From the sequence record MN445184: a stretch of DNA of 64,000 nucleotides, one strand, 5' to 3'. Source of the DNA: Escherichia phage vB_EcoA_4HA11. The translations under genes were made by a program, and so were the position numbers. The notes beneath the pieces are model-generated. The model searched no databases. It was given only the letters and a program-made list of their open reading frames with translations, and was not told where the DNA came from. Every line of letters begins with the position of its first letter. The first letter of the stretch is position 1. Shown here one piece after another: positions 14,554 to 23,915 of the stretch.

Positions 14554-14871
14554 TTATTTGCAGAGAACAACGACGAGTTCAGCTAACTCTCCGAGGGTAG
14601 GATCATCTCCATGTTTACCCACCCACTCGTCACTAATTTCTACATCGTACTCTTCTTCGATTTCCATGACCAGCTCAATCATGTCAAGATCGTCACCACC
14701 GAGGTCATTCTTAACCCGTAACGGCGCTAATGCATCGATATTATCATCAATGTTATCAAACTTTTCCTTGTGATCCCCGTTGCGCCAAGTTTCCATGTTC
14801 AGGTTGTCACAAGCGTACTGAGCCAGAACACGCATTACTTCAACATAAGTTGGTTTGTTTGACATAAGCAT
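14554..14871 (-). CDS. acyl-carrier-protein-like protein with Asp replacing the phosphopantetheinylated Ser
   Basis: DLGGDDLDMIELVMEIEEEYDVEISDE aligns with E. coli ACP [27 protein letters not shown]; Ser position is Asp (codon 14691..14689). Confidence 0.6.
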   Translation of the reverse strand: MLMSNKPTYVEVMRVLAQYACDNLNMETWRNGDHKEKFDNIDDNIDALAPLRVKNDLGGDDLDMIELVMEIEEEYDVEISDEWVGKHGDDPTLGELAELVVVLCK

Positions 14872-14908: not shown

Positions 14909-17323
14909 TTAGATTTTGACTTCTTTTTCAGCCAGTTCGGCAGTGACGGTGTATTTCACCCCATCAACTTCCACATCCATAGTGGATTCTTCCAAATCCA
15001 GGTCGGTAAACCAACCATGGCCTGCAACAATCCCATAAACTACCTTGGACAGCGTTTTGTTCAGGGCGCGGACTTCGTTGATAGCTGCTTTTGCTGCGTC
15101 TCCGATCCAACTTTCGATCAGCTTTTTCTGAGTCTCTTCCGGTACGCTGGTGATCATCGGTGATTTAACGAATGCATTGTATTCAGCCAGGGCATTAGCG
15201 ATCAGCTGATCAGCGACATTCAGTTTTTTACCGTCCGTCTGTTTTTTGATAACAGACGCGATGCTCGGCAGTGAAGATGCGCCTTTGATTTTCACATTCA
15301 ATTCACGACTCATATAGACATCGGTTGATTCTACAGAAGAAGTCTTCGGTGAAAATCCATAGTCGCGAATGCCGTTTGCTGACAGGAAATCAGCCGCTTC
15401 TTTGCCATATTTTGAAGCCAGACCAGTAGCGTTGCCTTTACCAACCAGTTCATCACGGTAGAATTTCAGAACTTTTTGCTTTGCCTTCAATGCTTCACGG
15501 CGCACATTGTCTGCAAAGAATTCAGCAGCACTGATATTCTTTGTCATGGCGCGGTTAACCATTGGGACACTTTCCAGATTTACAATGAAGACTTCCGGCC
15601 CACCAAACACATGAACACCCATGGCAGTCAAATCCTGTGCCACCTTAGCCCGAACAATCGGAGAATCTGCAGTGATAGGCATTGTTTTCAGGTTGATGAT
15701 ACCATCCTTGACAATAGTGTAATTGCGATAACGCCAGGTTCCCAGCTCTTCAGGAAGTTCATATTTCTTCTGTACAAACTCAGGCACAACAACCGTTCCG
15801 TGTTGAACTGTCTGCACACTGATGTTAGGACGTTCTGAATTGTAGACCAAATTGCTGATCGGGACAATCCCTTTATCATCTGCTGGATTGAATTCGGGGG
15901 TCCAATCTTCGTGCTCGGCCAGTTTGAGCGCCAGGGCTTTACGCTCTTCTTTAGAAGTCGCATTCGCAATCTCTTCGGCCAACTTGTCTTCGGTGTCATC
16001 AACTTTCTGTACAGTACCGCGCCCAATGCTCTTGTAAGAGAATAGCGGATGCTTGGTGACGATAGAGACATCGGCTTCGGCCAGGTAGGTCAAAACATCA
16101 ACAATGGTCGTTGCATCTTCAGCCGGAACCATATTATAATCGATGCCATCAACTCCTCGCAGAGATTCGTCTACGATAGCCTGAGTCAGATCGACTTTGA
16201 TGTTGGAATAGTCCTGCTTGGTGAAACAGTTGCTGTACTGTTTGATGAAGTGGACGTCACCCGTCTTCTTCAGCGCGGCCCAGACCAGATCGGCGTCCAT
16301 GGTATACACGCCGTAAAATGCCAGCACGTATGCCGCTTGGATGTCTGCCAGATTATCCAGCTGGTCGATCATGTTGGGGTTTACAACCCACAGCTGAGAA
16401 ACGCTTTCAGGGATGCTGACGTGGCCAATAGGGTGCTCTTCATCAGGATGCACAGCTAAAACAGTCGCCACGCCATTTTCAACATAAATGGCATGGGTAT
16501 AAACCAGAGGAACATCGACTACAACTTTCGGTGAAGAAGTTTTCAGCACGTTTTCCAATTCGGTCTGATATTCATTCTGGCCTTCGGCGAATACGTGGGT
16601 CGCACCAGAACGTTCTGCCATTAGCGCCAGCAGTTCGCGATTACAATACCAACCGTATTCGATGAAGGTAATGTTATCAAACGCTTTGGGCAGTACTTCA
16701 GCGGCATCCAGGATTTCATTAGAACGCCAGCAGTTGTCATATCCGTCGGTCATGAATGCCAGGTTGTTAACATAACCAGGTTTATTCAGGCTAATGGCAG
16801 TTTCCGCAGCCAGTTTCAGCGGCTCAACAAAACCAGTACAACCAGAAGGCTTCAGGAAACGGTCAATTAGATTATTGATCTCACTGAGGTCGGTTGCACT
16901 GTTAATCTGACGTCCGGCAAATACCGTTCCGAAATCACCGCGAGATGAAAAGTAAAGGATGCTCACAGTATCTTCCGGTTTCACCAGGGAAGGCAGGTTC
17001 TCCTTCAGATGCTTACGGACTTCTGGAAGTGAACGATACATGGAACCGGAGATATCCACAACGATTACATGGTTAGACGGCGCGACGGTCGCAACCGCAT
17101 TCTTAAATGTTAATGATTCAATCATCGTTTTGACCTTTTTGGGCTTTGGAGTGTGTTTGGAGTTCGCGTCGGCGTTCTCCAGCATAGTTTCAATGAAATC
17201 CCGGTTGTTTTCCATTTGGGCGACCAGAACATCACTGGGACGGAATGAATTGTCAAGACAATCAAGTCCGGCGCGTTTTAATTTGTTGTCGGTCATCAGG
17301 CTCTCGTGAGTTATATTTCCCAA
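14909..17323 (-). CDS. von Willebrand factor A (vWA) domain protein
   Basis: MIDAS-like VVVDISGSMY motif, downstream ...FMTDGYDN; track start is TTG, likelier ATG 17296 with GAGAG SD. Confidence 0.65.
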   Translation of the reverse strand: MGNITHESLMTDNKLKRAGLDCLDNSFRPSDVLVAQMENNRDFIETMLENADANSKHTPKPKKVKTMIESLTFKNAVATVAPSNHVIVVDISGSMYRSLPEVRKHLKENLPSLVKPEDTVSILYFSSRGDFGTVFAGRQINSATDLSEINNLIDRFLKPSGCTGFVEPLKLAAETAISLNKPGYVNNLAFMTDGYDNCWRSNEILDAAEVLPKAFDNITFIEYGWYCNRELLALMAERSGATHVFAEGQNEYQTELENVLKTSSPKVVVDVPLVYTHAIYVENGVATVLAVHPDEEHPIGHVSIPESVSQLWVVNPNMIDQLDNLADIQAAYVLAFYGVYTMDADLVWAALKKTGDVHFIKQYSNCFTKQDYSNIKVDLTQAIVDESLRGVDGIDYNMVPAEDATTIVDVLTYLAEADVSIVTKHPLFSYKSIGRGTVQKVDDTEDKLAEEIANATSKEERKALALKLAEHEDWTPEFNPADDKGIVPISNLVYNSERPNISVQTVQHGTVVVPEFVQKKYELPEELGTWRYRNYTIVKDGIINLKTMPITADSPIVRAKVAQDLTAMGVHVFGGPEVFIVNLESVPMVNRAMTKNISAAEFFADNVRREALKAKQKVLKFYRDELVGKGNATGLASKYGKEAADFLSANGIRDYGFSPKTSSVESTDVYMSRELNVKIKGASSLPSIASVIKKQTDGKKLNVADQLIANALAEYNAFVKSPMITSVPEETQKKLIESWIGDAAKAAINEVRALNKTLSKVVYGIVAGHGWFTDLDLEESTMDVEVDGVKYTVTAELAEKEVKI

Positions 17324-17379: not shown

Positions 17380-17420
17380 AATAAAAATGCCCGATTGAAT
17401 ATAACCGGGCATTATATTAT
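17380..17420 (-). terminator. rho-independent terminator
   Basis: ATGCCCG...CGGGCAT stem (17387..17393 / 17406..17412) followed on minus strand by UUUUAUUAUAUU. Confidence 0.5.
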
Positions 17421-17446: not shown

Positions 17447-18319
17447 TTATTTAAAGGAGTCTACAATGGATTTGAAAATATAATCTTTGGAGCGTTGTTG
17501 TACCGGGAGTTCTCCATACGGAACCATGCAAGGGTGTTGCTTGGTCTGAGGGTCTTTGACTGGGCCATACACCCATCCCTCAGCCTCCTTCTCCGCCATC
17601 CAGCTCTCATGCGATTCGCTGGGCTTACGATCACCAGTGAGATGGAAGATAACACCTTTGCAAGCGCTCTCACGCTGCCAGGCCGGAGATTGTTCCCAAG
17701 GCAGTTGAGAGTCGTCACCAACAGACTTGCAGTATGCGCGGTTGGCTTCATGACAAATCTTGGCGATGCGCAGAACCAATGGCGAATAAGTGAGATCGAG
17801 TTTGGAGTTGGCGCGCAGGAAATCACTAACAGCCTTACGAGATTTGGCGTTGTGAGAGTCAACAACAAGTTCCATGTCATCCGGCCCACAAACGAAAGAC
17901 GCCAAGAAGCGCTCGCCATTTTCCGCTCTGAACATCACGTCCTGAATCATCACATTGAAGCCGAGGTGATAGGCCGGGCAGAGGGCGCTACGTTCAACAG
18001 CGTATTGATCGATCCGGATCTCTGCCGTTTCCGTGGCTTTGGCCAACAGATCTTGTTCAACAAGCGCCCGGTACGCCTCCAGCTGCCACAGCTGGTCGAA
18101 GGTGTTATTGTAGGAAATCTCTTTGCCCAGGGCTTCATCGAAGTTGGCCGGGTCTATGGATGTGCTGGGCTTGGTGCCGTGAACGACGAAGCCGTTATCC
18201 ATCTTGAAATGACAAGTGATAGCCCGGTGACCGCCGACTTCGCGGTCTTCGTAAATCACCTCAGCGATATGTGACTTCAGGACTTCAGGAGTGAGTTTGA
18301 TGCCAGTACGAGTTGTCAT
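17447..18319 (-). CDS. two-domain protein: N-terminal phage Gp49-like domain, C-terminal RyR-like domain
   Basis: N-term ITCHFKMDNGFVVHG...NFDEALGKEI...LEAYRAL; C-term HESWMAEKEAEGWVYGPVKD...PCMVPYGEL resembles RyR-domain signature. Confidence 0.5.
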   Translation of the reverse strand: MTTRTGIKLTPEVLKSHIAEVIYEDREVGGHRAITCHFKMDNGFVVHGTKPSTSIDPANFDEALGKEISYNNTFDQLWQLEAYRALVEQDLLAKATETAEIRIDQYAVERSALCPAYHLGFNVMIQDVMFRAENGERFLASFVCGPDDMELVVDSHNAKSRKAVSDFLRANSKLDLTYSPLVLRIAKICHEANRAYCKSVGDDSQLPWEQSPAWQRESACKGVIFHLTGDRKPSESHESWMAEKEAEGWVYGPVKDPQTKQHPCMVPYGELPVQQRSKDYIFKSIVDSFK

Positions 18320-18327
18320 GTGTTATC

Positions 18328-18702
18328 CTATGATATTTGTTTACAGACCTCCACTACTTTACGGCACATGACGATATCGAACAAGCCGATATGGCAATCG
18401 CGCTTCTTGATCCCCAGATTATGAGCCAGCCAGCTGTAAGCATCACTCCTGCTCCTCTGCCCACTTTTCCAGATAGGGTCAAACGACCTATGAGCTTCCT
18501 GCTTAGCAGCACGGAGAGCGGCATTCGCCATCCTTCCCAGAGGTTGTCTACCATCCCCATGGGTATGGCAACCCACACGAGCGTCGCATGGCGAGCATCC
18601 CCAGAACTTCAGTTTGTGTAGATCTGGGCGATGAGGGTAGAGTACATCACCACTGACGTATTTGGCAGGAAGACCGCAATAATCACAAATAACTTGTTTC
18701 AT
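18328..18702 (-). CDS. zinc-ribbon protein (DUF3268-like)
   Basis: CDYCG...CSPCDARVGCHTHGD cysteine pattern. Confidence 0.45.
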   Translation of the reverse strand: MKQVICDYCGLPAKYVSGDVLYPHRPDLHKLKFWGCSPCDARVGCHTHGDGRQPLGRMANAALRAAKQEAHRSFDPIWKSGQRSRSDAYSWLAHNLGIKKRDCHIGLFDIVMCRKVVEVCKQIS

Positions 18703-19170: not shown

Positions 19171-21189
19171 TTAGAAAATGACTTTTACAGTACGGTTAAA
19201 CGCGCCGGACACTTTGACGAACACGTGGTTGCGTTGCGTCGTCGAGAATCCCAGACCGGACAGTTGGTTTTCATTCGGCTGGACTTTCATTTTACTACCC
19301 AACATTTCAAAAACCTTACGATGTTTATCCAGTTCCGGCTTCAGATATTCGTTGTAGAAACCACGAGTACCTTCAGGATTAGCACAGCCTTCAAGAATGA
19401 AGAACACGTGCTTGTTGCCTGTCTGCTCGCCATCCCAATGGTTTGGTGAATTCAGGACCAGCTGTACTTTCTGGAAGGTCGCAGTCTTGATACCCCAAAC
19501 TTCTTTAGACTTATCAACATTAGCCAGTTCGGACTTAATGCCAACAACTTGTTTGTCTTTAACAGTCAGGATGACTGCAGTGATACGCCCCTGATCTTTC
19601 AGGCCAGGATGGCTGAAACGATGCGTTGCGCCTTTGTATTCTACTTCGACTTCAAACCCTTCGTCGATTTTTTCACGTTGATTGTAGTTGTGGATTTCGA
19701 AACGGTATTCACCATCGCGCAGCTTGCTTTCATCTGTAAAGATGATATTTTCCACCGGGGCGCGGTTTGGATCAATACCATCCATACCGTTCATATCGAT
19801 ATCCAGATGGGCACCTGTCATAGAGCGGCGATCACGGAAGTAAACGTGCTCCATGTTGTTGAACATATGCAGATCGAGGTCGTCGTTGTTGTGCCACGCC
19901 AAGGAAACGCGCAGATACCCGTCAACTTTACCACCAGCAGCCTTTACACGTTCTTTAATGGAATCGGTCACTTCACCGTTGTAAGACCAGGAGAAACCGT
20001 TGTTCCACTTGAACAGGTTAGGCGCATCTGGGTTCGCCGGAGCAACCAGGGACATCAGGTTGCTAGTATGAGAATTCTCTACAAGCACTTCCATTGAATG
20101 CGCTTTTGGCAGAACATTGCTCAGGAAATCATCAACGCTGATCTCTTCAACTTTTTCCAGGGATTTGGTCGGAGTTTTCACTTCGGCGGCCAGCTGTGCA
20201 AACGGATCCATCGCTTTCTGAGCGGCCAGATCTGCGAACAGAACGTTGTTGATTGTCAGATCATCGTAAACCGCATAACGACGCGCCAGTGAGTCTTCCA
20301 AACCCAGAGCAATAACTTCTTTCTGAGCGTTTTCGATCATGGATTTTGAAACCAGCGCTGTCGGACGTTTGTAGTTCGCCGGAGCAACTTTGGATTCAAA
20401 CGATTTAACAGCCTTTTCCAGTTCCACGCCTTCGCTGATATCTGTCAGCAGAGTGCCGATAACTGTGTTGCGGATGCCGTGTGGAACATGATTGTTTGAA
20501 CGGTATCCAGTATGCCACGCCCACAGAGAACGGGCTGATTCGGGGACTTGTTCATATGCCTTTTTGGTTTCAACAAATCCCTTCACTGCTGCTTTGTGTT
20601 CTGCGCCGCGATACAGAGAATTCTGGTCAATCAGTTCCAGAACGATTTCAGCTGATTCCAGAGTAATTTCACGCAGACCGCGTTCAAACAATTCAATAGC
20701 CTGGCGAATTTCACCTTTTTTCGAAGCGATTGCGTCCGGACGCAGAACATAGCTACCAAGTAATTGGGTATGGAAATGATTGTAAGTACGGATTTTGCCA
20801 TCTTCACCAGATTCGTGATTGTGAGACAGGCCGACTTTGGCAGAATCGTTAAAATAAACATCGACGATTGCGTGTTGTTTGACATACGCGGAAAGAGCCG
20901 CAGCCACCACGTCATATTCATTACCCAGATCAATGTTGTCCCAGATAGAAATTACGTTCAGTTCTGAATCGATGGTGACAACACCGCCGATGTTACGGAT
21001 GAATTGTTTACAGCAGGTGCAATCGTGTTCAGTACGTTCGCGGTACAGCGGGTTAGTACCAGCAGGGAAAGATGCCAGATACAGATCCCAAAGAGCATCT
21101 TTATCGATATTGGTCATGAACAGACCAGTTGCGGACATCGCCAGCACGTTGTTATTAACTGCCGTTGCGAAGGGTTTGAATTCTGCCAT
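19171..21189 (-). CDS. large hypothetical protein (672 aa)
   Basis: Long uninterrupted ORF; no motif I can assign by eye. Confidence 0.55.
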   Translation of the reverse strand: MAEFKPFATAVNNNVLAMSATGLFMTNIDKDALWDLYLASFPAGTNPLYRERTEHDCTCCKQFIRNIGGVVTIDSELNVISIWDNIDLGNEYDVVAAALSAYVKQHAIVDVYFNDSAKVGLSHNHESGEDGKIRTYNHFHTQLLGSYVLRPDAIASKKGEIRQAIELFERGLREITLESAEIVLELIDQNSLYRGAEHKAAVKGFVETKKAYEQVPESARSLWAWHTGYRSNNHVPHGIRNTVIGTLLTDISEGVELEKAVKSFESKVAPANYKRPTALVSKSMIENAQKEVIALGLEDSLARRYAVYDDLTINNVLFADLAAQKAMDPFAQLAAEVKTPTKSLEKVEEISVDDFLSNVLPKAHSMEVLVENSHTSNLMSLVAPANPDAPNLFKWNNGFSWSYNGEVTDSIKERVKAAGGKVDGYLRVSLAWHNNDDLDLHMFNNMEHVYFRDRRSMTGAHLDIDMNGMDGIDPNRAPVENIIFTDESKLRDGEYRFEIHNYNQREKIDEGFEVEVEYKGATHRFSHPGLKDQGRITAVILTVKDKQVVGIKSELANVDKSKEVWGIKTATFQKVQLVLNSPNHWDGEQTGNKHVFFILEGCANPEGTRGFYNEYLKPELDKHRKVFEMLGSKMKVQPNENQLSGLGFSTTQRNHVFVKVSGAFNRTVKVIF

Positions 21190-22964: not shown

Positions 22965-23915
22965 TTAATCGAAGCGAGAGAGGTGTGTCACAGTGTTTTG
23001 AACAGGTGCGCACGCGTATACACGAACATTAGCACCCCACACCCCACACAGCTTAGGCATATTGGTATCGTTAATGATATACGCTGGCACATAACTTTCA
23101 ATTTGGCCGTTAACATCTACGGGTCGAGAAGATTTTTCAACTGCCATAGAAAGAATTACTTCCAACGTTTTTGGAGATACCAACGCCACGCCGTTCATAT
23201 CATCAACAAATACCTGACCTTCTTCAATTGCCATGCTGGCAACGATGTCATTGATCTGACGGGAAGGGGTATTCGTCAGCATATCAGAGAAATCAGGCTC
23301 TTTGAACACAGCCATGTTTTTCAGGAATTTTCCTTTCGGATATTCTTTGCCATTCCACATCACAGTCTCATTCACTTTGATGCATGCCTGAGGGAATTCA
23401 CCTTCAACGCGTAACTGGCCATCTGGGAAACCGCGTGAATAATAATATTCCAGTGCCGGACCGACTTCATCTTCTGAGCGAATAAATTTGCTCATGTTAG
23501 AGGCAAACACACGTTGTAAACATTCATCACCATTAAAACCAGCGATATGGGCCACGCCGTCATTAACAGTTGTGATATCACCCTGAGCGTCCATGATGGC
23601 TTTCAGGATTTTATCCATATCAACATCATCGGTGTCTTCTTTTGGAGTTGCCACCAGCTCAAGTTTGATGTCATGATCGAAATAAGCCGCTTCCAGTAAT
23701 TCGCGGGTCTCTTCCAGAACCAGTTTGGCCTGATTGCGAATTTTACCGAAGTCAGGGGCTGTAATATATCCAGCCGCATTACCAAAAGCCAAATTCAATC
23801 TCACGTTTTTATTAAATGTAGTTGTCATAATATAGCGACTCCAGTTATTCGCTTTTTGCCCGACTTGGGCGAATAGTGTATTTTGGAACCAATTTCCACT
23901 CAGAAACTTGGTCAT
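22965..23915 (-). CDS. hypothetical protein
   Basis: 316-aa ORF; true start may be the internal Met at about 23828. Confidence 0.45.
   Translation of the reverse strand: MTKFLSGNWFQNTLFAQVGQKANNWSRYIMTTTFNKNVRLNLAFGNAAGYITAPDFGKIRNQAKLVLEETRELLEAAYFDHDIKLELVATPKEDTDDVDMDKILKAIMDAQGDITTVNDGVAHIAGFNGDECLQRVFASNMSKFIRSEDEVGPALEYYYSRGFPDGQLRVEGEFPQACIKVNETVMWNGKEYPKGKFLKNMAVFKEPDFSDMLTNTPSRQINDIVASMAIEEGQVFVDDMNGVALVSPKTLEVILSMAVEKSSRPVDVNGQIESYVPAYIINDTNMPKLCGVWGANVRVYACAPVQNTVTHLSRFD

What the first reader, a model, noticed from the sequence alone, without database searches (positions are those of the whole stretch)
17447..18319. Fusion of a phage Gp49-like domain with a RyR-like domain
The N-terminal part (ITCHFKMDNGFVVHG...NFDEALGKEI...QLEAYRAL) resembles the phage Gp49 family and the C-terminal part (HESWMAEKEAEGWVYGPVKD...PCMVPYGELP) resembles the ryanodine-receptor (RyR) repeat domain. 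RyR domains in phages have no established function.
Basis: partly seen in the sequence, partly recalled or inferred. Interest (0 to 1): 0.4.

Follow-up and report, generated by a model that had tools for sequence, protein, structure and literature searches.

The report
Two-sponge anti-defence fusion protein (Acb4–RyR)
This Salmonella-phage gene joins two domains that recent work showed soak up bacterial alarm molecules (an anti-CBASS Acb4 domain and an anti-Thoeris RyR domain), so it is a real but largely already-explained counter-defence gene.

Summary
Window 17447..18319 (minus strand) is a 290-aa ORF. It matches Pfam PF13876 (Phage_gp49_66, residues 9-84) and PF02026 (RyR, residues 235-279), both above the curated cut-offs.

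- PF13876 is the Acb4 family of anti-CBASS cyclic-dinucleotide sponges (2024 preprint).
- Viral PF02026 proteins are RyDEP/"RyR Tad" anti-Thoeris proteins that bind or cleave 2'/3' cADPR (two 2026 preprints).

This protein is 289/290 identical to "homolog H6" (UniProt A0A0C5PQF8) of the RyDEP preprint. The RyR construct purified there (residues 179-290) is 100% identical to the window. All six ligand residues of RyR Tad are conserved.

The most likely function is a bifunctional sponge that blocks CBASS and type I Thoeris signalling, like the known Acb4-Tad2 and Acb4-Sequestin fusions.

Acb4-RyR fusions are common: 54 of the 120 listed homologue clusters carry both domains.

Open points:
- A fast-evolving middle domain (about residues 100-172), restricted to Ackermannviridae, with no informative fold match.
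- A second Kuttervirus allele (ViI/PhiSH19 type) whose RyR domain has lost its ligand-binding core.
- The full-length protein has never been tested.

The parts
17447..18319 (-). Complete ORF, 290 aa plus the TAA stop. It encodes an Acb4 domain, a middle domain and a RyR domain.
   Evidence: ORF list. It is 289/290 identical to UniProt A0A0C5PQF8, which is homolog H6 of the RyDEP preprint. It is 100% identical to proteins of Salmonella phages GG32, BPS5 and 3384-D8.
18032..18319 (-). N-terminal Acb4-family domain (residues 1-96; the Pfam match covers residues 9-84). This is the predicted cyclic-dinucleotide sponge module.
   Evidence: PF13876 at E=1.5e-11, above the gathering score. The AF2 model gives helix 11-16, strands 18-28, 31-40, 45-47 and 52-54, and a long helix 62-96. 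It is 36% identical to the phage N4 Acb4 homologue and 23% to SPO1-type Acb4. Residue mapping is in alignment A4.
17804..18022 (-). Middle domain (about residues 100-172): four beta strands followed by a long helix. It is fast-evolving, found only in Ackermannviridae, and of unknown function.
17450..17785 (-). C-terminal RyR (Repeat12-like) domain, residues 179-290. This is the predicted 2'/3' cADPR-binding module, with ligand residues H237, W240, K255, H262, K278 and D279.
   Evidence: PF02026 at E=1.9e-10. It is identical to the construct cloned as H6. It is 60% identical to RyR Tad/H7, 42% to H4 and 34% to RyDEP. The ligand residues are invariant or nearly invariant in alignment A1 and align with RyDEP H75/W78/H100/D117. 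Foldseek hits RyR structures.
18326..18329 (-). Shine-Dalgarno-like AGGA, 6 nt upstream of the ATG. It overlaps the TAG stop of the upstream DUF3268 gene.
   Evidence: Read directly from the sequence.
17386..17413 (-). Intrinsic-terminator-like hairpin (11-bp stem followed by TTTATTATAT), 34 nt downstream of the stop codon.
   Evidence: Terminator scan.
18328..18702 (-). Upstream neighbour: a DUF3268 zinc-finger protein (124 aa). Its stop lies 8 nt from the ATG, so it is probably co-transcribed. The synteny is conserved in Kuttervirus and in Klebsiella Taipeivirus-like phages.
   Evidence: PF11672 at E=1.3e-36. tblastn matches to the PhiSH19 and Klebsiella phage neighbours. A second terminator-like site at 18740-18720 lies upstream of it.

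Best explanation
The gene encodes a bifunctional anti-defence 'sponge'. The N-terminal Acb4-family domain is inferred to assemble into a tetramer whose inter-subunit pockets sequester CBASS cyclic dinucleotides, such as 3'3'-cGAMP. The C-terminal RyR (Repeat12-like) domain is inferred to pair back-to-back through its first and last helices. Each protomer would then bind one molecule of the Thoeris signal 1''-3'/1''-2' (g)cADPR in a pocket lined by H237, W240, K255, H262, K278 and D279, holding it without cleaving it. One polypeptide would thus silence two nucleotide-signalling immune systems (CBASS and type I Thoeris), as shown for Acb4-Tad2 and Acb4-Sequestin fusions.

What is shown: the domain identities, the conservation of the binding residues, and identity to a protein whose RyR domain was already purified and assayed.

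What is inferred: ligand binding by this particular protein, the oligomeric state (probably a tetramer carrying two RyR dimers), and activity in vivo.

The middle domain is unexplained. It may be a spacer or assembly adaptor.
For: Domain and family evidence:
- Both Pfam domains score above their curated cut-offs.
- PF13876 is the Acb4 family. All eight tested homologues bound 3'3'-cGAMP, and the family is predicted to be tetrameric.
- Kuttervirus orthologues appear in that paper's family table.

Evidence on the RyR domain:
- Viral PF02026 proteins bind or cleave 2'/3' cADPR and defeat Thoeris.
- The window protein is homolog H6 of that study apart from one substitution (R169 versus C169). The purified RyR construct is 100% identical to the window.
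- None of H1-H8 cleaved cADPR, and six of the eight bound it.
- The window RyR domain is 60% identical to RyR Tad/H7, a 43 nM gcADPR sponge that is active in vivo.
- All six mutationally validated RyR Tad binding residues are conserved.
- The AF2 model is confident, and its C-terminal module matches RyR R12 structures.

Evidence on the fusion architecture:
- Sponge-sponge fusions are an established architecture (Acb4-Tad2, Acb4-Sequestin).
- Acb4+RyR fusions recur: 54 of the 120 listed clusters carry both domains, some without any middle domain.
- The RyR domain is also found fused to the Acb2/Tad1 hairpin domain.
Against: - The full-length protein has never been assayed.
- The accessible text of the preprint does not say whether H6 was among the six binders or the two non-binders.
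- Several SPO1 Acb4 contact residues differ here: E49 is V45, Y57 is I55, T70 is I68 and K81 is Q79. The pocket-forming beta3-alpha4 loop carries a 2-residue insertion. CDN binding and specificity therefore cannot be read from the sequence.
- In RyR Tad, the fused N-terminal domain had no detectable activity, so a fused domain need not be functional.
- The supporting papers are preprints.
Confidence: 0.6

Rival explanations
1. This is a single-function anti-Thoeris sponge. Only the RyR domain binds an immune signal. The Acb4-like N-domain and the middle domain would serve merely as an oligomerisation or solubility scaffold and would not sequester CBASS signals.
For: In RyR Tad (Pectobacterium phage CB1 gp68) the N-terminal domain had no detectable activity, and the RyR domain alone gave the phenotype. 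Four of the SPO1 Acb4 ligand-contact positions are substituted, and the pocket loop carries an insertion.
Against: The N-domain scores above the PF13876 gathering threshold. All eight diverse Acb4 homologues tested bound 3'3'-cGAMP. The Acb4 domain is the best-conserved part of the locus across Ackermannviridae. It is kept even in alleles that have lost the RyR pocket and in Limestonevirus phages, where the gene lacks both the middle and RyR domains. That pattern argues for an independent function.
Confidence: 0.2
2. The RyR domain is a RyDEP-type inverting glycosidase. It would hydrolyse 2'/3' cADPR to linear ADPR rather than sequester it, possibly only in the full-length or oligomeric context.
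For: The catalytic dyad of RyDEP (H75/D117) aligns with H237/D279, and W78 and H100 align with W240 and H262. Only the isolated domain was assayed, not the full-length protein.
Against: The preprint reports that none of the eight homologues, including this exact domain, degraded 2'/3' cADPR. The domain is much closer to the sponge-type H7 and H4 (60% and 42% identity) than to RyDEP (34%). RyDEP Q54, a residue the authors mutated, aligns with the invariant S218 here and with Ser in four of the six other panel homologues aligned, including H4 and H7. No NARP genes that could use ADPR were found next to it, and there is no Nampt hit anywhere in the window.
Confidence: 0.1
3. One or both domains bind a different nucleotide from the canonical CBASS and type I Thoeris signals. 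Candidates are His-ADPR, canonical cADPR, ADPR, ATP/ADP or cyclic trinucleotides. The protein would then target another defence system or manipulate host metabolism.
For: RyR R12 domains bind ATP/ADP, and RyR Tad bound several ADPR-derived molecules below 1 uM. Acb4 specificity varies with the host. The Acb4-Sequestin fusion also binds 2'3'-cAA.
Against: All characterised viral members of both families target CBASS or Thoeris signals. The binding residues for gcADPR are fully conserved.
Confidence: 0.1

Closest known systems
RyDEP homolog H6 (UniProt A0A0C5PQF8, Salmonella phage) in Lopez Rivera et al. 2026 preprint (PMC13232231)
   Same: It is essentially the same protein: 289/290 residues are identical, and the RyR construct purified for EMSA and cleavage assays (residues 179-290) is 100% identical.
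   Different: There is a single substitution, R169 in the window versus C169, in the middle domain. The paper used only the RyR domain and does not discuss the Acb4 fusion or the middle domain.
RyR Tad (Pectobacterium phage vB_PatP_CB1 gp68; H7 of the RyDEP preprint)
   Same: The C-terminal RyR domains are 60% identical. All six binding residues are conserved: H129/W132/K147/H154/K170/D171 correspond to H237/W240/K255/H262/K278/D279. RyR Tad is a dimeric sponge for 1''-3' gcADPR with a Kd of 43 nM.
   Different: RyR Tad has a different N-terminal domain, a small domain-swapped beta-sheet fold with no detected activity. It is not an Acb4 domain, and there is no middle domain. It is encoded in the N4-like anti-signalling hotspot rather than in an Ackermannviridae genome.
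RyDEP (mycobacteriophage DyoEdafos gp78; PDB 35tm)
   Same: It shares the PF02026 fold. The catalytic and ligand residues H75, W78, H100 and D117 align with H237, W240, H262 and D279.
   Different: RyDEP is a stand-alone 138-aa glycosidase embedded in a NARP1 operon. The window domain is only 34% identical to it and was reported not to cleave cADPR.
Acb4 (Bacillus phage SPO1; PDB 9E4W) and the PF13876 family, including the phage N4 homologue
   Same: The N-terminal domain matches PF13876 above threshold. It carries the family motif NGF-x-V-x-G ... P-x-NFD ... G ... W-x-LE-x-Y.
   Different: It is only 23% identical to SPO1-type Acb4. Four SPO1 contact residues are substituted, and there is a 2-residue insertion in the pocket loop. 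It is fused to two further domains.
Acb4-Tad2 (Pasteurella phage Pm86) and Acb4-Sequestin (Pseudomonas phages YH6/Ab09 gp59) fusions
   Same: They have the same design: an N-terminal Acb4 joined to an anti-Thoeris sponge domain in one polypeptide. For both, activity against CBASS as well as type I Thoeris was shown. Ab09 gp59 is a tetramer whose Sequestin part dimerises.
   Different: The anti-Thoeris module here is a RyR domain rather than Tad2 or Sequestin. An extra folded domain of about 75 aa sits between the two modules.

Membership tests
Acb4 (PF13876, anti-CBASS sponge) | Significant match to the PF13876 profile above the curated gathering score | tested here: met
   45.1 bits against a cut-off of 27, E=1.5e-11, residues 9-84. 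Close Kuttervirus orthologues are listed in the Acb4 paper's family table.
Acb4 (PF13876, anti-CBASS sponge) | Core of antiparallel beta strands flanked by N-terminal helix or helices and a long C-terminal helical region (dsRBD-like alpha-beta-beta-beta-alpha) | tested here: inconclusive
   The order of secondary-structure elements in the AF2 model fits: H11-16, E18-28, E31-40, E45-47, E52-54, H62-96. No direct superposition on 9E4W was obtained, because the listed Foldseek matches (top 50) were almost all RyR structures and did not include 9E4W.
Acb4 (PF13876, anti-CBASS sponge) | Conservation of the SPO1 Acb4 ligand-contact residues (K36, F48, E49, V56, Y57, F62, N63, I66, T70, K81) | tested here: inconclusive
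   Conserved or conservative: R32, F44, F60, D61 and L64. Changed: V45, S54, I55, I68 and Q79, plus a 2-residue loop insertion. Homologues from Gram-negative phages share many of these changes and still bound cGAMP.
Acb4 (PF13876, anti-CBASS sponge) | Homotetramer that binds 3'3'-cGAMP or related CBASS signals and rescues phage from CBASS | not testable with these tools
   This needs SEC-MALS, EMSA and plaque assays. No multimer modelling was available.
Viral RyR-domain anti-Thoeris proteins (RyDEP / RyR Tad, PF02026) | PF02026 match above the gathering score and a Repeat12-like four-helix fold | tested here: met
   41.3 bits against a cut-off of 27.4. The AF2 model has helices 180-199, 213-227, 233-246 and 273-289. 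Foldseek probability is 1.0 to 6uhi, 3nrt and 9l90. phmmer hits 35tm (RyDEP) at E=4e-11.
Viral RyR-domain anti-Thoeris proteins (RyDEP / RyR Tad, PF02026) | Ligand-binding residues validated by mutagenesis (RyR Tad H129, W132, K147, H154, K170, D171; RyDEP H75, W78, H100, D117) | tested here: met
   H237, W240, K255, H262, K278 and D279 are present and are invariant or >=90% conserved among 18 full-length homologues.
Viral RyR-domain anti-Thoeris proteins (RyDEP / RyR Tad, PF02026) | Binding of 2'/3' cADPR and evasion of Thoeris in vivo | not testable with these tools
   The identical domain (H6) was assayed by EMSA in PMC13232231. Six of the eight homologues bound, but the accessible text does not name them. 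No in vivo test of H6 is reported.
RyDEP-type cADPR glycosidase (enzymatic subclass) | Hydrolysis of the ribose-ribose bond of 2'/3' cADPR | not testable with these tools
   The literature reports that none of H1-H8 (H6 is this domain) degraded cADPR. The dyad residues are present, but the aligned position of RyDEP Q54 is Ser218. The protein is therefore not filed as an enzyme.
Multi-sponge fusion proteins (Acb4-Tad2, Acb4-Sequestin type) | Two recognised signal-sequestering domains in one ORF | tested here: met
   There is a single uninterrupted ORF with both domains. The architecture recurs in 54 of the 120 listed homologue clusters.
Multi-sponge fusion proteins (Acb4-Tad2, Acb4-Sequestin type) | The full-length protein neutralises both target systems | not testable with these tools
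   This requires co-expression plaque assays.

The most novel reading that the evidence does not exclude
The middle domain (about residues 100-172) may be a third, so far unrecognised functional module: a new signal-binding or anti-defence domain, or an adaptor that reconciles a tetrameric Acb4 with a dimeric RyR. It is confined to Ackermannviridae and evolves fast, yet it is retained even in the ViI/PhiSH19-type allele, whose RyR pocket has been excised. The two Kuttervirus alleles (intact versus gutted RyR) may be kept by opposing selection: Thoeris favours the sponge, while sponge-sensing guard systems such as Panoptes penalise it.
Probability: 0.15. Interest if true: 0.55.

Novelty: new member of a known kind. 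Interest (0 to 1): 0.3.

Why it matters
The gene gives a concrete function to a 'hypothetical protein' present in well over a hundred sequenced Kuttervirus and other Ackermannviridae phages, a genus from which phages have been proposed for Salmonella biocontrol. It predicts that these phages resist both CBASS and type I Thoeris.

It adds a third anti-Thoeris partner (RyR) to the known Acb4 fusion repertoire. This supports the 'guilt by fusion' rule for finding sponges.

The natural pair of alleles, with an intact and a gutted RyR pocket, offers a ready-made comparison. It could be used to measure the benefit and cost of carrying a cADPR sponge.

None of this changes current concepts. The mechanism is already published for close homologues.

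Tried and rejected
1. Another known sponge domain (Sequestin PF21825, Tad2 PF11195, Acb2/Tad1) in the middle region. A Pfam scan of the whole protein at E<=1 returns only PF13876 and PF02026.
2. PDB sequence search with residues 1-178. There were no hits even at E<=10, so SPO1 Acb4 is too distant for phmmer.
3. Middle domain as a duplicated Acb4 or RyR module. hhalign probability is <=0.5%.
4. Fold of the middle domain.
   - BFVD finds only orthologues.
   - The AFDB50 library was unavailable.
   - phmmer against 1.8 billion representatives finds only its own cluster plus one spurious repeat hit.
5. A NAD-reconstitution (NARP) neighbourhood, as for RyDEP. A Nampt query from the Klebsiella phage neighbour finds nothing in the 64-kb window.
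6. A hidden RyR core in the ViI-type allele, in another frame or a downstream ORF. tblastn finds none in the PhiSH19, Dickeya or Klebsiella loci.
7. The per-homologue EMSA result for H6. It is given only in a figure and is not in the accessible text.
8. Literature linking Acb4 or Thoeris with Kuttervirus or Ackermannviridae. Nothing relevant was found.

Full report
**Observation.** Window 17447..18319 on the minus strand is a 290-aa ORF with an ATG start and a TAA stop. An AGGA Shine-Dalgarno-like motif lies 6 nt upstream of the ATG and overlaps the stop codon of the preceding DUF3268 gene (18328..18702). A strong terminator-like hairpin follows at 17413-17386.

Pfam hmmscan recovers both proposed domains above their curated cut-offs:
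- PF13876 Phage_gp49_66, residues 9-84, E=1.5e-11, 45.1 bits against a cut-off of 27.
- PF02026 RyR, residues 235-279, E=1.9e-10, 41.3 bits against a cut-off of 27.4.

PHROG 4435 covers the whole protein. A PDB sequence search hits RyR Repeat12 domains and entry 35tm.

**Where it comes from.** The window is about 99.9% identical to Salmonella phages S117, PLL1 and GG32, which are Kuttervirus members of the Ackermannviridae. The protein is 100% identical in GG32, BPS5 and 3384-D8. It is usually annotated 'hypothetical protein', occasionally 'RyR domain-containing protein'.

**What the domains are now known to be.** Three recent preprints cover both families.
- PF13876 is the Acb4 family (10.1101/2024.12.30.630793). 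SPO1 Acb4 is a tetrameric sponge that sequesters 3'3'-cGAMP and related CBASS signals, and eight out of eight diverse homologues bound 3'3'-cGAMP. Kuttervirus orthologues (ViI, S8, heyday, allotria) are in that paper's list of 1,331 family members.
- Viral PF02026 proteins are anti-Thoeris factors. RyDEP from mycobacteriophage DyoEdafos is an inverting glycosidase that cleaves 2'/3' cADPR using the dyad H75/D117. Other homologues are non-catalytic, nanomolar sponges (PMC13232231).
- An independent preprint describes 'RyR Tad' (Pectobacterium phage CB1 gp68). It is a dimeric sponge for 1''-3' gcADPR with a Kd of 43 nM. Its binding residues are H129/W132, K147/H154 and K170/D171 (10.64898/2026.06.04.730250).
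- PDB entry 35tm is RyDEP.

**This very protein was already in a published panel.** Supplementary Table 1 of the RyDEP preprint lists 'H6', UniProt A0A0C5PQF8, from a Salmonella phage. It differs from the window protein at one position, R169 in the window versus C169. The construct purified for assays (Met plus residues 179-290) is 100% identical to the window. The paper states that six of eight homologues bound 2'/3' cADPR and that none of the eight cleaved it. Which six bound is shown only in a figure, so I could not establish the result for H6. 'H8', from Erwinia phage phiEa2809, has the same three-part architecture. Neither RyR preprint mentions the Acb4 fusion.

**Anatomy.** AlphaFold2 on an 18-sequence alignment gives mean pLDDT 88.5 and three modules.

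(i) *Residues about 9-96, the Acb4 domain.* It has a short helix, antiparallel strands and a long helix. It is 36% identical to the N4 Acb4 homologue and 23% to SPO1-type Acb4. SPO1 contact residues are partly kept (R32, F44, F60, D61, L64) and partly changed (V45, I55, I68, Q79). There is also a 2-residue insertion in the pocket loop. Membership of the family is solid, but ligand specificity cannot be read from the sequence.

(ii) *Residues about 100-172, the middle domain.* It has four strands plus a long helix. It is recognisably homologous but highly divergent across Ackermannviridae. I found no informative relative:
- BFVD returns only orthologues.
- phmmer against 1.8 billion representatives returns only its own cluster.
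- hhalign shows no similarity to the flanking domains.

(iii) *Residues 179-290, the RyR domain.* It is a four-helix Repeat12-like domain matched by Foldseek to RyR3 R12 and B. thetaiotaomicron RyR structures. It is 60% identical to RyR Tad/H7, 42% to H4 and 34% to RyDEP. H237, W240, K255, H262, K278 and D279 correspond to all six validated RyR Tad residues and to RyDEP H75/W78/H100/D117.

**How common the architecture is.** Among the 120 best homologue clusters, 54 carry PF13876 plus PF02026. These include direct fusions of about 195-225 aa without a middle domain, for example in a Kluyvera ascorbata contig. Six clusters carry RyR fused to the Acb2/Tad1 hairpin domain PF24729. Fusion of sponges is a documented theme (Acb4-Tad2, Acb4-Sequestin). 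Such fusions block both CBASS and type I Thoeris, and Ab09 gp59 is a tetramer whose Sequestin part dimerises.

**Best explanation.** The protein is most likely a bifunctional sponge (confidence 0.6). The Acb4 tetramer would sequester CBASS cyclic dinucleotides. The RyR domains, paired through helices alpha1 and alpha4, would sequester 1''-3'/1''-2' gcADPR without cleaving it. By analogy with Ab09 gp59, the holo-protein should be a tetramer with two RyR dimers. Domain identity, residue conservation and identity with H6 are shown. Ligand binding, stoichiometry and in vivo activity are inferred.

The rivals are:
- Only the RyR part is active and the rest is a scaffold (0.2).
- The RyR domain is a RyDEP-like glycosidase (0.1). 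This is disfavoured by the reported lack of cleavage by this domain and by its closer similarity to the sponge-type homologues.
- One or both domains bind other ligands (0.1).

**Locus variation.** Kutterviruses carry two alleles at this locus.
- The window type, with an intact RyR, is in about 75 phage records at >=80% identity.
- A 241-aa ViI/PhiSH19 type is in about 94 records at >=90% identity.

The ViI/PhiSH19 type keeps the Acb4 domain and a homologous middle domain. Its C-terminus retains only the equivalents of RyR helices alpha1, alpha2 and alpha4. It lacks alpha3 and the hairpin, and with them all six ligand residues. No RyR core is hidden nearby. The retained helices alpha1 and alpha4 are those that form the RyDEP and RyR Tad dimer interface, so the remnant may survive as a dimerisation element. 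That is an inference.

Other signs of modular exchange:
- Phage allotria is a mosaic. Its N-domain is of the window type and the rest is of the PhiSH19 type.
- At the DNA level the upstream DUF3268 gene is about 97% identical between the window and PhiSH19. The Acb4 part is about 80% identical, and the remainder cannot be aligned.
- Limestonevirus (Dickeya) phages have an Acb4 gene lacking the middle and RyR domains.
- In a Klebsiella Ackermannviridae-like phage, the orthologue and its DUF3268 neighbour lie directly downstream of Nampt and ribose-phosphate pyrophosphokinase genes, a NARP2-like pair. This fits an anti-defence neighbourhood.
- The window itself has no Nampt.

**Verdict.** The finding is real and the domain calls are right, but the function is no longer unknown. 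The protein is a new combination within the established class of fused anti-signalling sponges, and its RyR domain has already been handled experimentally. The remaining novelty lies in the untested full-length dual activity, the orphan middle domain, and the intact-versus-gutted allele pair. I score interest at 0.3 and rate novelty as a new member of a known kind.

Noticed in passing
L001 2501-3226 (Salmonella phage PhiSH19 gp099); the same allele is in about 94 phage records: The alternative Kuttervirus allele (241 aa) keeps Acb4 and the middle domain. Its RyR domain lacks helix alpha3 and the hairpin, and with them all six ligand-binding residues. Only the equivalents of alpha1, alpha2 and alpha4 remain, and alpha1 and alpha4 are the dimer-interface helices. 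Phage allotria is a recombinant between the two alleles.
   Followed up: partly
window 18328-18702 (-): A DUF3268 zinc-finger protein (124 aa) lies immediately upstream. Its stop codon overlaps the RBS of the fusion gene. It is syntenic in PhiSH19 (91% aa identity) and in a Klebsiella phage (59%). No function is known, so it is a candidate co-functioning gene.
   Followed up: partly
L003 1-2036 (Klebsiella phage phi1_146021): In this related phage the DUF3268 gene and the Acb4-type orthologue lie directly downstream of ribose-phosphate pyrophosphokinase and nicotinamide phosphoribosyltransferase genes, a NARP2-like NAD+ reconstitution pair. The orthologue is annotated 'anti-CRISPR protein', probably an automatic label. 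Dickeya phage Ds16CZ (L002 3161-3493) has a 111-aa ORF that matches only the Nampt C-terminus.
   Followed up: no
proteins P0061, P0086, P0092, P0099, P0102, P0118: RyR domains are also fused C-terminally to the Acb2/Tad1 hairpin domain (PF24729). This is another sponge-sponge architecture, and I did not see it mentioned in the papers I read.
   Followed up: partly
[not shown]
   Followed up: no
window 17495-18274 (+): A 259-aa ORF lies antisense to the fusion gene. There is no evidence that it is a gene, and it is most likely a shadow ORF of the GC-richer coding region (GC 0.52-0.56 against 0.44-0.50 in the flanks).
   Followed up: no
window 22965-23915 (-) and 14554-14871 (-): Nearby genes include a MazG-like nucleotide pyrophosphatase (phrog_2144) and an acyl carrier protein (phrog_4154). 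The large neighbours at 19171-21189 (672 aa) and 14909-17323 (804 aa, vWA domain) have no assigned function.
   Followed up: no
PMC13232231 Supplementary Table 1: The 'cloned sequence' listed for H3 starts after the RyR ligand-binding core. The one listed for H4 ends with a 15-residue tail identical to the C-terminus of H1. These look like table or construct irregularities, and they could bear on which two homologues failed to bind.
   Followed up: no
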